Shown one piece after another: positions 3,444-47,619 of a stretch of 64,000 nucleotides of DNA. The first letter of the stretch is position 1, and every line of letters starts with the position of its first letter. The notes below the pieces were generated by a model that worked only from the letters and a program-made list of their open reading frames with translations, had not been told where the DNA came from and ran no database searches. The translations under genes and the position numbers were made by a program. The stretch is from a virus (taxonomy: Duplodnaviria > Caudoviricetes): IMG/VR virus record IMGVR_UViG_3300022719_000071, positions 224,001 to 288,000 of that record, one strand, 5' to 3'.

Positions 3444-4978
3444 GTGATGAAGACGAGTACATGTACGGGGAAGTCGATGGTCCTGACGAGGACGAACTTC
3501 AATCCGTAGATGATATGATCGATGAGGCCGAGTCGGACATTGAGCCGTCTGACTACACGCAGCATATGCTGTTGTCTTATCTCGTTTCCAACCCGTCGCT
3601 ATGGATTAAGTGCAGGCCCATCATCAAGGAAAGCTATTTCGACCGAGAGTACAGGCCAGTTATTGATTTGCTTCGCAAACATGTCGATCAGTACAATGAC
3701 CTACCCAATCCGATAATAATTCATGCCAAGACTGGTGTGAAGCTGAATTATATGGATGATGCGCAGAAGGACTCACGGGTGTCCTGGTTTTGCGATGCCA
3801 TGGAAGAATTCTGTCGCATCCAAGCGTTCCACTCGTTTCTCATTAATGCAGCAGAAAAAACCGAGAGTGATCGTAGCGGAGACACCTTAGCCTCTCTACT
3901 CAAGGATGCAGAGCAGGTAGTACAAATCTCCCTACACCGTGATCTTGGCCTGGAGATTCACGACTCCACCAGGGATGTTCTTACATCGGCGCAGAAGGAT
4001 GACAACATTACTACCGGGTACACAATGCTTGACCGAGCATTCAGCGGTGGTATCACACGACCTAGTTTCAACTTGGTGTCTGCTGCTTCTGGTGACGGAA
4101 AGTCAATCTTCATGCAAAATCTTGCAGTCAACGCTGCTGAAAATGGAGAGAATGTCATTTTTTACAGCCTGGAATTAGAGCCTGCCATTATTCTTAAACG
4201 CTTTGTTGCCATGATGACAGACACCAACATTAACTTGGTGTATGAGCATCTAGACTCAGTAGCATACACAATGTATAGCCGCAAAAAGAAGGATGGCGAA
4301 ATCTGGGTGAAGAAGTTCCCAATGACAAACACAACCGTTGCGGACATCGCATCACATTACCTTGAGCTAACCATGCAAACCGGCATGTATTTTGGCTTCG
4401 TTTGCGTTGACTACATAGACGTGATGTACCCCATTACTAGTAAGGTTGATATTGGTAATATCCATCAGAAGGACAAGGCTGTTGCGGAGGAGTTGAATGA
4501 CTGGACGCACAAACAGAAGATCATCTGTTGGAGTGCATCACAGCAAACCAAAGGGGCACAGGATGAAAAGGATGCACGACAGTCAGGTGTTGCGGGTGGT
4601 ACTCCCAAAATCAATACTTGCGACAATCTCATTATCGGAAAGCGATCTGAAAAAGACAAGGAAGACGAACGTTGGTGGGGACATATTGCAAAGGCTCGTA
4701 GTTCCGGTGGAACAAAGGCTAAAGTTCCCTTCCGTTGGAACAAAGATACTCAGCGTATGTTTGACGGTGATCCCGAACTCTTTGAAGAAGCAAACCCCTT
4801 CCTGTTCGGAAAGAAACGTTCCCATCTATCCGAAGACGATGAGAGTGAGCGCATAAGCAATGATCCTTTGCTCAAGGGATCAAAGTTGCTAAAGAAAGAA
4901 GCCAAACCAGTAGGTAAAGAAGGAACAGGTAAAGCCACATTAGATAGGTTGGCAAAACAGTTCGGGAGCACCACATGA
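3440..4978 (+). CDS. Replicative DnaB-like helicase (T4 gp41-like)
   Basis: Walker A AASGDGKS, SLEL, VCVDYID, SASQ and AKARS motifs. Confidence 0.92.
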   Translation: MSDEDEYMYGEVDGPDEDELQSVDDMIDEAESDIEPSDYTQHMLLSYLVSNPSLWIKCRPIIKESYFDREYRPVIDLLRKHVDQYNDLPNPIIIHAKTGVKLNYMDDAQKDSRVSWFCDAMEEFCRIQAFHSFLINAAEKTESDRSGDTLASLLKDAEQVVQISLHRDLGLEIHDSTRDVLTSAQKDDNITTGYTMLDRAFSGGITRPSFNLVSAASGDGKSIFMQNLAVNAAENGENVIFYSLELEPAIILKRFVAMMTDTNINLVYEHLDSVAYTMYSRKKKDGEIWVKKFPMTNTTVADIASHYLELTMQTGMYFGFVCVDYIDVMYPITSKVDIGNIHQKDKAVAEELNDWTHKQKIICWSASQQTKGAQDEKDARQSGVAGGTPKINTCDNLIIGKRSEKDKEDERWWGHIAKARSSGGTKAKVPFRWNKDTQRMFDGDPELFEEANPFLFGKKRSHLSEDDESERISNDPLLKGSKLLKKEAKPVGKEGTGKATLDRLAKQFGSTT

Positions 4979-45539: not shown

Positions 45540-45902
45540 ATGCGTTACGTTCTTAATTTCAATCCAGAGGGTTCCGCTACTCTGAGTGAAGGCTATAATG
45601 GCTCTATTGAGTTCAAGAAGCTCCCCAAGGGTCTGAAGAGTGGTGCTGTTACGGCAGTTCGCTTCGCTGACAGCGGCAACGGTGTTGCCCCCCTGACTCC
45701 CCGTGATGAGGTTGGTAACCGTCTGGGTACCGTCATCAACGAGAAGATCGCCCGTGAGGTTGGTCTGAAGGGTCGCAAACGTTACATGCTTAAGCAGGTT
45801 GGTCGCAGTAACTGGTACAACCTCATTCCTCACAGCAACATCGGCAAGAAGGCTCGTCGCATCGATGGCCCTGGCGTGTCCGTGAGCATCATCGAGCGAT
45901 AA
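45540..45902 (+). CDS. Hypothetical protein
   Basis: AGGAG RBS; strong codon bias; GC hairpin at about 45935-45952 follows. Confidence 0.65.
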   Translation: MRYVLNFNPEGSATLSEGYNGSIEFKKLPKGLKSGAVTAVRFADSGNGVAPLTPRDEVGNRLGTVINEKIAREVGLKGRKRYMLKQVGRSNWYNLIPHSNIGKKARRIDGPGVSVSIIER

Positions 45903-46348: not shown

Positions 46349-47254
46349 ATGAAAAGGCTTCAGTATAACACCACTACAGTCGATGAAGTCCTGGAGTGTG
46401 TCGTGAACGACGGCTACGCTCTCATTGAAAATGTAGCCGATGAGCAAACTCTTGCTGCGATTAAATCAGAGTTGTCCCCACTTCTGAAAAACACTACGGG
46501 GAATAACCCTGAACCATTTCTTGGTGATCACACCAAGAGGTTTGGTCGTTTGGTGTATCGCATGCCTTCGACGCATCCAATCATTCAACATCCGTTGGCT
46601 ATGCATGTATGCGAGGACACCATTGGAAAGTACGCTTGCTCATTCCGTTTGTCTTTTACCGGAATCATGCACGTCATGGCAGGACAGAAAGCACAATCCC
46701 TTCACCGTGATATCACACCGTTCCCGTCTCCAGCACCCACGATGGCAATCGCAACTATGTGGGCTATCACAGATTTCACCCGTGAAAATGGAGCCACTGT
46801 GTTTGTACCTGGAAGCCACAAGTGGGACAATGAGCGTAAGCCAAAAAGAAAAGAGCTTACGTGTGCAGAGATGCCCGCTGGCTCGGTTCTAATCTACGAT
46901 GCCGCTCTCATCCATGGTGCCGGAAAGTGTGTAACCGGAGAGAGAACCGGACTAAGCCTCCAGTACAAGGTTGGCTGGTTACGTCAAGAGGAGAACCAGT
47001 ATCTAGCTACTCCTTTGGAGTTTGCCAAGACACTACCAGAGAGCATGCAACGTCTCATCGGATACGACCTTGCGGCACGTCATTGGGGTGCAGTTGACCA
47101 GCAGCATCCCCTGGACTTCTTGAATGGTGACAATCGAGTTGGTACACTGGAGCCACCTGGATACGATTACGAGAATCGAGTGGTGGAACTAGAAGCCAAG
47201 GAACGTGGATTGTCTACCAAGACACGTTTCGACGTAACTCTTGACAATGAGTAA
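46349..47254 (+). CDS. PhyH-family Fe(II)/2-oxoglutarate dioxygenase
   Basis: QSLHRD (HxD), WAITDFTRENGATVFVPGSH and distal IHGAG. Confidence 0.9.
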   Translation: MKRLQYNTTTVDEVLECVVNDGYALIENVADEQTLAAIKSELSPLLKNTTGNNPEPFLGDHTKRFGRLVYRMPSTHPIIQHPLAMHVCEDTIGKYACSFRLSFTGIMHVMAGQKAQSLHRDITPFPSPAPTMAIATMWAITDFTRENGATVFVPGSHKWDNERKPKRKELTCAEMPAGSVLIYDAALIHGAGKCVTGERTGLSLQYKVGWLRQEENQYLATPLEFAKTLPESMQRLIGYDLAARHWGAVDQQHPLDFLNGDNRVGTLEPPGYDYENRVVELEAKERGLSTKTRFDVTLDNE

Positions 47255-47271
47255 AGAATGGTAAATAATAT

Positions 47272-47508
47272 CATTGCTGTAAACGTGGGCAAAAGCAGGA
47301 GCCTGTCGAAAGCGGGGAATAAACCCTAGTCTATCACGAGCACAGGGTGGCCATGCGGTGCGAAGAACACGTGATGATCCAAGCGGTGAACCCGAAGGGT
47401 AGCGTGACCGACCGAGCGGAGCCGGAAAACTATACGTAAGCCCGATGGCGCTGACGGTAGGCAATCGGTAGAATCGTTGCCGGGAATAGTAGATCCGGTA
47501 CAGCAATG
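47272..47508 (+). ncRNA. Candidate structured ncRNA C (unassigned, about 237 nt)
   Basis: 10-bp terminal stem CATTGCTGTA/TACAGCAATG starting just after TTGACA...TAAATA; GC-rich internal stems; no credible ORF. Confidence 0.65.
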
Positions 47509-47544
47509 TTGCTCCACAGGCATAGATAACGATGTAAAGCCAAT

Positions 47545-47619
47545 GCCGATGTAGTTTAGTTGGTAAAACCGGGCACTCGTAACGCTCAGTCGTCAGTTCG
47601 ATTCTGACCATCGGCTCCA
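47545..47619 (+). tRNA. trnT: tRNA-Thr(CGU)
   Basis: Anticodon loop CTCGTAA; CCA end. Confidence 0.88.

What the first reader, a model, noticed from the sequence alone, without database searches (positions are those of the whole stretch)
47272..47508. Self-contained 237-nt structured RNA C with its own promoter
Seen: a perfect 10-bp stem joins the two ends (47272-47281 with 47499-47508), and the 5' end lies about 5 nt after TAAATA. The interior is GC-rich with ATCACG/CGTGAT, GCAC/GTGC, ACCC-GAA-GGGT, GCAA/TTGC and CCGG/CCGG stems and A-rich joiners. It lacks the hallmarks I know for tmRNA, RNase P, SRP, 6S or group I/II cores. Inference: the strongest candidate for an undescribed phage ncRNA or catalytic RNA in this window.
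Basis: partly seen in the sequence, partly recalled or inferred. Interest (0 to 1): 0.75.

Follow-up and report, generated by a model that had tools for sequence, protein, structure and literature searches.

The report
New folded RNA in phage tRNA cluster
The 237-base stretch is a real gene for a folded non-coding RNA that matches no catalogued RNA family and is kept, with matching base-pair changes, next to transfer-RNA genes in a small group of uncultured giant phages; what it does is not known.

Summary
The stem and promoter are real, but this one sequence proves little: the predicted fold is no more stable than shuffled sequence (z -0.18).

The evidence is comparative. Homologues lie at the same genomic place in five further phage lineages (L003, L004, L051, L052, L055), plus a 93%-identical variant in an unrelated gut metagenome.

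A covariance model scores them at 143-218 bits. On the refined structure, 94% of cells pair, against 85% after shuffling. Seventeen pairs changed on both sides, against 7 expected (0 of 500 shuffles).

The fold is a long end stem (P1+P2) with a side hairpin (P9), a four-way junction (P2-P5), and a long arm with invariant internal loops and a variable, dispensable tip.

No Rfam family matches any homologue at E <= 10. It is not tmRNA, RNase P RNA, a Y RNA or T4 rnaC/rnaD.

It is not self-contained. There is no terminator, and in relatives it sits directly between tRNA-Ile and tRNA-Thr. It is probably cut out of tRNA precursor transcripts.

Function is unknown. My best guess is a trans-acting RNA that binds a partner.

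The scan noted this same stretch once before (e1-5401648). It has not found this family on other DNA.

The parts
47241..47269 (+). Sigma-70-like promoter, TTGACA-17-AATAAT, with TAAATA at 47262-47267. It implies a start near 47275-47277.
   Evidence: 11 of 12 matches. The same TAAATA box precedes the RNA in L051 and in the X5 variant. L003 and L004 have tRNA-Ile there instead.
47272..47508 (+). The RNA gene. The conserved core is 47277-47503; the outer 5 bp of the end stem are specific to each lineage.
   Evidence: The covariance model R1 matches 47272-47508 at 201 bits and the homologues at 143-218 bits. It is single-copy in the genome.
47272..47281 (+). P1, 5' strand. It pairs with 47499-47508.
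   Evidence: 96% of cells paired, and 5 of 8 pairs changed on both sides (for example CUGUA/UACAG becomes CUGAA/UUCAG in L052).
47282..47285 (+). P2, 5' strand (AACG). It pairs with 47475-47478 (CGUU) and stacks on P1.
   Evidence: 100% paired; A-U changes to G-C, and C-G changes to U-A or U.G.
47287..47304 (+). P3 hairpin, GGGC/GCCU, with a variable loop of 8-13 nt.
   Evidence: C-G changes to U-A; the outer pair is G.U, A-U or G-C.
47305..47313 (+). Conserved junction, GUCGAAAGC (CGARAAG in all lineages).
   Evidence: In the window it fits the Y-RNA word GNCGAAN0-1G (PMC4201824), but the first G is not kept in relatives.
47314..47327 (+). P4 hairpin, GGGG/CCCU.
   Evidence: the outer pair is G.U, U-A, C-G or G-C in different lineages.
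47329..47333 (+). P5, 5' strand (GUCUA). It pairs with 47458-47462 (UAGGC).
   Evidence: A-U becomes G-C in L051; the other pairs do not vary.
47339..47347 (+). P6, 5' strand: AGC, an ACA internal loop, then GGG. It pairs with 47441-47450.
   Evidence: C-G becomes U-A in L052. GGG/CCC is invariant, so that part is untested by covariation.
47348..47440 (+). Variable domain. It holds P7 (47368-47372 with 47402-47406) and P8 (47377-47380 with 47397-47400). It is largely absent from L055.
   Evidence: P7 is 100% paired, with 3 of 5 pairs changed on both sides. L055 lacks the arm. Nucleotide identity is 52-60% here against 66-78% in the cores (the four more distant homologues).
47441..47457 (+). 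P6, 3' strand (CCC, a GAUG loop, GCG), followed by the conserved junction CUGACGG.
   Evidence: CCCGAUGGC and UGAC are nearly invariant.
47458..47462 (+). P5, 3' strand (UAGGC).
47463..47474 (+). Purine-rich linker of 7-12 nt in the four-way junction.
47475..47478 (+). P2, 3' strand (CGUU).
47480..47498 (+). P9 hairpin, CCGGG/UCCGG. The loop is AGUAGAGA or AGUUGAGA in relatives.
   Evidence: 97% paired, and 4 of 5 pairs changed on both sides.
47499..47508 (+). P1, 3' strand.
47511..47544 (+). Remnant of the 5' part of an older tRNA-Thr gene.
   Evidence: 12 of its first 14 nt match the start of the L004 tRNA-Thr.
47545..47619 (+). Intact tRNA-Thr(CGT), apparently transcribed together with the RNA.
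   Evidence: No terminator lies between them.

Best explanation
Window 47272-47508 encodes a member of a previously undescribed family of folded non-coding RNAs of about 200-250 nt. The family belongs to the tRNA gene cluster of a small clade of uncultured T4-like/Rak2-like jumbo phages.

Shown: the RNA is conserved in six lineages and keeps a defined fold through compensatory changes. The fold has a long end stem (P1+P2) carrying a side hairpin (P9). A four-way junction joins P2, P3, P4 and P5. A long arm (P5-P6) has invariant internal loops (ACA/GAUG, UGAC) and a variable, dispensable tip.

Inferred: it is made as part of a tRNA precursor transcript. In the window that transcript comes from its own promoter together with tRNA-Thr. 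In relatives the RNA lies between tRNA-Ile and tRNA-Thr or tRNA-Leu. The host's tRNA-processing nucleases would release it, with RNase P cutting at the 5' end of the downstream tRNA. The closed end stem would then protect both ends.

Guess: it acts in trans, using its invariant junction and loop nucleotides to bind a protein or RNA partner connected with tRNA metabolism or host take-over. It probably does not regulate the neighbouring gene in cis.
For: Homologues were found through neighbouring genes in independent assemblies. A further variant, about 93% identical, lies in a gut metagenome from another study.

Model R1 scores the homologues at 143-218 bits.

Pair counts on the refined structure:
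- 94.1% of cells paired, against 84.9% after shuffling.
- 17 pairs changed on both sides, against 7.1 expected (0 of 500 shuffles).
- Covariation score 0.355, against 0.176 after shuffling and at most 0.095 with slid partners.

RNAalifold on its own recovers P1-P6 and P9.

The 5' and 3' cores are 66-78% identical in the four more distant homologues; the middle is 52-60%.

No frame is conserved on either strand.

Context: the RNA starts directly after the CCA end of tRNA-Ile in L003 and L004. It ends 5-10 nt before the next tRNA in L003, L004, L051 and L055. The window has a promoter but no terminator.
Against: - No transcript data exist. No RNA run was on record for this DNA, so expression, ends and stability are all inferred.
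- There are only six lineages, all from one clade, so relatedness inflates the shuffle-based statistics.
- P6b and most of P5 never vary, so covariation does not test them.
- In L052 a promoter separates the RNA from the next tRNA, so linkage to tRNA processing is not universal.
- No partner has been identified. The conserved 120-aa neighbour has no RNA-binding fold match.
Confidence: 0.6

Rival explanations
1. It is a ribozyme. The invariant junction and internal-loop nucleotides would form an active site, for instance for processing the phage's own tRNA precursors or for cutting itself out.
For: The pattern is one seen in ribozyme and aptamer cores: a multi-helix fold in which helices covary while junction nucleotides stay fixed (CGAAAGC, ACA/GAUG, UGAC, the AGUAGAGA loop). 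The RNA lies among tRNA genes.
Against: No known ribozyme family, including the RNase P, group I/II and small self-cleaving models, matches any of six homologues at E <= 10. The topology also differs from RNase P: the hairpin P9 lies outside the long-range helix P5, not inside it. The ends of the RNA vary between lineages, which argues against a fixed self-cleavage site.
Confidence: 0.1
2. It is a cis-acting leader, such as a riboswitch or attenuator, that controls the tRNA gene downstream.
For: In the window and in L051 it lies between a promoter and a tRNA gene.
Against: In L003 and L004 it lies between two tRNAs with spacers of 0 and 5-10 nt. In L052 a separate promoter follows it. Nothing terminator-like or antiterminator-like was found. 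The closed end stem leaves no expression platform.
Confidence: 0.07
3. It is a second, unusually large Y RNA that binds the Ro60 (TROVE) protein this phage encodes.
For: The phage has a Ro60 gene with TROVE and vWA domains. Proteins 52-78% identical to it occur in other metagenome assemblies. The window's junction GUCGAAAG fits the Ro-binding word GNCGAAN0-1G of bacterial Y RNAs (PMC4201824). Some bacteria have two Y RNAs.
Against: A better candidate lies directly upstream of the Ro60 gene. It has its own promoter, GGGUCGAAG near the 5' end, a T-arm (GAUGG-UUCGAUU-CCAUC) and a closing stem. RNA C lies 35 kb away and is twice the size of known Y RNAs (80-130 nt). It has no tRNA-like arms, and the first G of the word is lost in L003, L004 and L051. 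The Rfam YrlA model does not match it.
Confidence: 0.05
4. It is decaying DNA with no function of its own, such as a remnant of tRNA genes or of a mobile element, or a minus-strand protein gene.
For: tRNA debris does lie next to it, at 47511-47544. A minus-strand frame is open across the region in five of seven sequences.
Against: Compensatory changes occur in eight helices. The cores are 66-78% identical to the four more distant homologues, more than the 62-66% of the neighbouring protein gene. The minus-strand translations do not align, they shift frame between homologues, and L052 and the X5 variant have stops in all frames. The window's minus-strand ORF would run through the whole tRNA-Thr gene.
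Confidence: 0.03

Closest known systems
Phage T4 species 1 and species 2 stable RNAs (rnaC, 139 nt; rnaD, 119 nt)
   Same: They are encoded on the same strand inside the phage's tRNA gene cluster, directly next to tRNA genes, and annotated as small stable RNAs. That their function is still unknown is my own knowledge. This phage has T4-type replication genes (family B polymerase, topoisomerase II).
   Different: There is no homology: model R1 scores about 0 bits on the T4 rnaC/rnaD region. RNA C is about twice as long and has a multi-junction fold.
ROOL and GOLLD RNAs (Rfam RF03087, RF01998)
   Same: They are orphan, intricately folded RNAs of phages and prophages, often beside tRNA genes, with conserved junctions and no known function (my own knowledge).
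   Different: They are 2-4 times larger. Neither Rfam model matches. Whether RNA C forms multimers, as they do, is unknown.
Bacterial and phage Y RNAs (YrlA, Rfam RF02553)
   Same: Both are closed by a stem formed from the two ends. The window carries a GNCGAAN0-1G-like word, and the phage encodes Ro60.
   Different: RNA C has no T or D arms, is twice the length, and is not next to the Ro60 gene. The word is not conserved in relatives, and a separate YrlA-like RNA sits beside the Ro60 gene.

Membership tests
Any Rfam 15 family (4227 models) | A covariance-model match at or near the family's gathering score | tested here: not met
   Nothing matched in 47272-47508 at the gathering score or at E <= 10. 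Nothing matched inside the RNA of L003, L004, L051, L052 or L055 at E <= 10.
tmRNA | A tRNA-like domain plus a tag reading frame | tested here: not met
   ARAGORN finds no tmRNA in the window or in the loci. The Rfam tmRNA model does not hit the RNA.
RNase P RNA | The conserved regions CR-I to CR-V and the P4 core, as encoded in the Rfam RNase P models | tested here: not met
   No RNase P model hit at E <= 10 in six homologues. The helix order also differs, on my reading.
Y RNA / YrlA | A GNCGAAN0-1G word near the 5' end | tested here: inconclusive
   GUCGAAAG at 47305-47312 fits. L003, L004 and L051 have U or A in place of the first G, and L052 and L055 depart further (motif from PMC4201824).
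Y RNA / YrlA | tRNA-like T and D arms, a length of 80-130 nt, and a gene beside the Ro60 gene | tested here: not met
   There is no T-loop or tRNA signal. The length is 200-250 nt. The Ro60 gene lies 35 kb away, with another candidate RNA next to it.
T4 rnaC / rnaD | Sequence and structure homology | tested here: not met
   R1, run with filters off on T4 69000-75000, gives only chance hairpin hits below 10 bits and none on rnaC or rnaD.
T4 rnaC / rnaD | Encoded within the tRNA cluster and processed from its transcript | not testable with these tools
   The position requirement is met. Processing needs RNA data, and none was on record.
Riboswitch or attenuator leader | An expression platform (terminator/antiterminator or start-site sequestration) next to the regulated gene | tested here: not met
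   No terminator-like site was found. Flanking genes differ between lineages.
Kink-turn (structural motif in the P7/P8 arm) | A 3-nt bulge followed by tandem G.A / A.G pairs between two helices | tested here: inconclusive
   L003, L004 and L051 fit (bulge-GA facing GA). The window and L052 have GA facing UA, and the X5 variant has AA facing UA. L055 lacks the arm altogether.

The most novel reading that the evidence does not exclude
RNA C is the first member of a new functional class: a compact RNA shipped inside phage tRNA operons. It would either catalyse a step in maturing the phage's own large tRNA set, or act as a decoy that traps a host enzyme aimed at tRNAs, such as an anticodon nuclease or another defence factor.
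Probability: 0.12. Interest if true: 0.85.

Novelty: categorically new. Interest (0 to 1): 0.62.

Why it matters
Complex, conserved RNA folds with no known relatives are rare. In the past they have led to new ribozymes, riboswitches and RNA-protein machines.

This one is small enough (about 200 nt in its shortest natural form, L055) for chemical probing, crystallography or cryo-EM. It has a natural deletion variant that marks out the essential core.

It also lies in the tRNA cluster of giant phages. Stable RNAs in that setting, such as T4 rnaC and rnaD, have gone unexplained for decades. Knowing its partner could show how large phages manage or protect their own translation apparatus.

Two limits apply. 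The family is known only from uncultured phages, and its function is entirely open.

Tried and rejected
Searches for more homologues that found nothing:
- blastn of the region against 50,697 phage records: no match.
- Exact-pattern scans built from conserved words. IMG/VR gave nothing or one chance hit. JGI metagenomes gave two chance hits in coding DNA. GTDB genomes gave 23 hits that match only the pattern itself.
- The search for related loci with PhyH, PolB, the PhyH alignment and the 120-aa alignment: no syntenic relative in IMG/VR or GTDB.
- PhyH relatives outside the close clade (L006, L007, L008, L011, L048) carry no RNA downstream.
- R1 on five cultured Rak2-like jumbo phages (RsoM2USA, Atu_ph07, Vibrio 2.275.O, SCTP-2, XaC1): nothing.
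- The records behind L004, L051, L052 and L055 are not held, so co-occurrence with Ro60 could not be tested. The Ro60 homologue list gave no contig shared with an RNA locus.

Expression:
- No RNA holder was listed among the sequencing runs. Only DNA contigs could be laid.

Ideas rejected:
- Retron: no reverse transcriptase in the genome.
- An RtcB link: no RtcB.
- Apparent full-length YrlA hits elsewhere in the genome turned out to be tRNAs.
- Antisense targets of the conserved loops are not enriched in the genome.
- My first model had a local hairpin at 47463-47478. It was replaced by the long-range P2, which pairs better (58.6% against 100%).

The 120-aa neighbouring protein:
- The model is confident (pLDDT 86).
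- Foldseek found nothing at E <= 0.001. The wide structural search gave a best Z of 4.0, to MraZ and B3-type DNA-binding barrels, which is too weak to use.
- It gives no evidence of a partner.

Full report
**Setting.** The window is bases 224001-288000 of a 360-kb IMG/VR virus record. It carries T4-type replication genes: family B DNA polymerase, topoisomerase II subunits, a DnaB-like helicase and a ligase. Its polymerase is only about 35% identical to those of cultured Rak2-like jumbo phages such as RsoM2USA and Atu_ph07. ARAGORN finds 25 tRNA genes in the window, all on the + strand. The finding lies between the stop codon of a 301-aa PhyH-family dioxygenase gene (46349-47254) and tRNA-Thr(CGT) at 47545-47619.

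**The observation.** The two ends, 47272-47281 and 47499-47508, are perfectly complementary. A TTGACA-17-AATAAT promoter (11 of 12 matches) ends at 47269, and no terminator-like site follows. The stretch has 55.7% G+C against 46.7% for the genome. On its own this proves little. The predicted fold is no more stable than shuffled sequence (z -0.18 on the + strand, -0.90 on the - strand). By my arithmetic, a 10-bp inverted repeat within 250 nt is expected many times by chance in 64 kb. Rfam gives no match at gathering scores or at E <= 10, and ARAGORN finds no tmRNA.

**Finding relatives.** DNA searches and exact-pattern scans of the phage, IMG/VR, JGI and GTDB collections found nothing real. Relatives came through neighbouring proteins instead.
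- The PhyH protein has a tight clade of close homologues. Their contigs carry the RNA downstream: L002 (RNA identical), L003 and L004/L005.
- A conserved 120-aa protein 1.4 kb upstream has 19 relatives. Their contigs gave L051 (also seen as L049 and L050), L052 and L055/L056.
- A 326-nt contig from a gut metagenome of a different study holds a variant about 93% identical (X5).

**Genomic context of each copy.**

| Lineage | Upstream | Downstream |
|---|---|---|
| L003, L004 | RNA starts on the base after the CCA end of tRNA-Ile(GAT) | Ends 5-10 nt before tRNA-Thr(CGT) |
| Window, X5 | A promoter replaces the upstream tRNA | tRNA-Thr |
| L051 | A promoter replaces the upstream tRNA | tRNA-Leu(UAA) follows after 6 nt |
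| L052 | Follows an ORF | A TTGACT-17-TAAATA promoter comes next |
| L055 | Follows the DUF4326 gene | Ends 8-10 nt before tRNA-Thr |

L055 is a short form of about 200 nt.

**Structure.** A covariance model built from six sequences (R1, 229 positions) scores all homologues at 143-218 bits. It finds one copy in the phage's own genome.

My first structure already beat its controls: 14 pairs changed on both sides against 6.9 expected, 0 of 500 shuffles. RNAalifold, run independently, recovered most helices. It replaced my local hairpin at 47463-47478 with a long-range helix between 47282-47285 and 47475-47478.

On the refined structure:
- 94.1% of cells pair, against 84.9% after shuffling.
- 17 of 43 pairs changed on both sides, against 7.1 expected (0 of 500 shuffles).
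- The covariation score is 0.355, against 0.176 after shuffling and at most 0.095 when partners are slid by 1-3 columns.

Most residual mismatches in P5 come from a one-column misalignment of L055. By hand P5 pairs in all seven sequences.

**The model in window coordinates.**

| Element | 5' strand | 3' strand | Note |
|---|---|---|---|
| P1 | 47272-81 | 47499-508 | End stem |
| P2 | 47282-85 | 47475-78 | Stacks on P1 |
| P3 hairpin | 47287-90 | 47301-04 | Variable loop |
| Junction | 47305-13 | | GUCGAAAGC |
| P4 hairpin | 47314-17 | 47324-27 | |
| P5 | 47329-33 | 47458-62 | |
| P6a | 47339-41 | 47448-50 | |
| P6b | 47345-47 | 47441-43 | Faces P6a across the invariant loops ACA and GAUG |
| Variable domain | 47348-47440 | | Holds P7 and P8 |
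| P7 | 47368-72 | 47402-06 | |
| P8 | 47377-80 | 47397-400 | |
| Junction | 47451-57 | | CUGACGG |
| P9 hairpin | 47480-84 | 47494-98 | Loop is AGUAGAGA or AGUUGAGA in relatives |

P1, P2 and P9 form a three-way junction. P2, P3, P4 and P5 form a four-way junction.

P6b and most of P5 never vary, so they rest on complementarity plus one compensatory change each in P5 (L051) and P6a (L052).

The P7/P8 arm looks like a kink-turn in L003, L004 and L051, less so in the window and L052. It is missing in L055, so it is not part of the essential core.

- The end stem and CCGG/CCGG stand.
- ATCACG/CGTGAT and GCAC/GTGC are not conserved and clash with P6 and P7.
- ACCC-GAA-GGGT is a window-specific tip.
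- In GCAA/TTGC, the 3' strand belongs to P2.

**Not coding, not debris.** No + strand frame is open. A minus-strand frame is open in five of seven sequences, but its translations do not align and shift frame between homologues. L052 and X5 have stops in every frame. In the window that ORF would run through the whole tRNA-Thr gene. In the four more distant homologues the RNA cores are 66-78% identical to the window, against 52-60% for the variable middle and 62-66% for the neighbouring 120-aa gene.

**What it is not.**
- No Rfam family matches any of six homologues at E <= 10.
- R1 finds nothing in five cultured Rak2-like phages.
- R1 finds nothing in the T4 tRNA region that holds rnaC and rnaD.
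- The genome has no reverse transcriptase and no RtcB.
- It does have a Ro60 (TROVE plus vWA) gene 35 kb downstream. The window's GUCGAAAG fits the Y-RNA word GNCGAAN0-1G (PMC4201824).
- That word is not kept in relatives. A far better Y-RNA candidate lies directly upstream of the Ro60 gene. It has its own promoter, GGGUCGAAG, a T-arm, a closing stem and a terminator.

I therefore rate a Ro60 link as unlikely.

**How it most likely works.**
- Shown: a conserved, covarying, non-coding fold tied to the tRNA cluster.
- Inferred from context: it is transcribed with tRNAs. Its ends are set by tRNA processing, with RNase P cutting at the downstream tRNA. The end stem reaches almost to those cut sites (7-10 bp in every lineage; in L004 it even pairs with the CACCA end of tRNA-Ile) and would protect the ends.
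- Guess: a trans-acting RNA that binds a partner through its invariant junction nucleotides.

A cis-regulatory role is unlikely, because flanking genes and spacing differ between lineages and there is no expression platform. Catalysis is not excluded, but nothing supports it.

**Limits.** There are no RNA data. The six lineages come from one clade. No cultured host exists and no partner is known. The neighbouring 120-aa protein folds confidently but matches nothing informative.

**Earlier notes of this scan.** They record the same stretch once (e1-5401648) and other orphan RNAs in the tRNA regions of jumbo phages. None of those belongs to this family.

Noticed in passing
L015:1105-1275 (G000:C1 about 306000-306170, outside the window), next to the Ro60 gene at L015:1405-3189: The phage encodes a Ro60 protein of 594 aa with TROVE and vWA domains. 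Directly upstream lies an unannotated YrlA-like Y RNA candidate with a TTGACT-17-TATATA promoter, GGGUCGAAG near the 5' end, a T-arm (GAUGG-UUCGAUU-CCAUC), an AGACCU/AGGUCU closing stem and a strong terminator. The Rfam YrlA model missed it.
   Followed up: partly
window 47511-47544: This is the truncated 5' part of an older tRNA-Thr gene; 12 of its first 14 nt match the L004 tRNA-Thr. It is followed at once by a different, intact tRNA-Thr(CGT), so the tRNA gene was replaced in this lineage.
   Followed up: partly
window 47283-47287 versus 47368-47372: ACGUG near the 5' end is also complementary to the 5' strand of P7 (CACGU) and changes with it in L003 (G to A with C to U). This pairing clashes with P2, P3 and P7. 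It could be an alternative fold or a coincidence, and it remains unexplained.
   Followed up: partly
window 47415-47463 (run X6, marine metagenome): A 151-nt marine contig matches only this 49-nt core stretch, with 4 differences, and has unrelated flanks. It may be a distant relative of the RNA or a recombined fragment.
   Followed up: no
L052:5765-5871: A 107-nt element closed by an 11-bp stem lies between a promoter and tRNA-Thr. It shares the words AGUCGGCGCAGA and AUGGUACCCC with the RNA of L051 and L004. It may be a partial paralogue.
   Followed up: partly
L004:4008-4012 with 4231-4235: In L004 the outer 5 bp of the end stem are formed by the CACCA 3' end of the upstream tRNA-Ile pairing with UGGUG after the RNA. 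The unprocessed precursor would therefore hide the tRNA's CCA end.
   Followed up: no
window 45540-45902: A 120-aa protein of unknown family lies 0.1-1.5 kb upstream of the RNA in all six lineages. The model is confident (pLDDT 86) and shows a tandem beta-alpha-beta-beta fold, with only weak likeness (Z 4) to MraZ and B3 DNA-binding barrels.
   Followed up: partly
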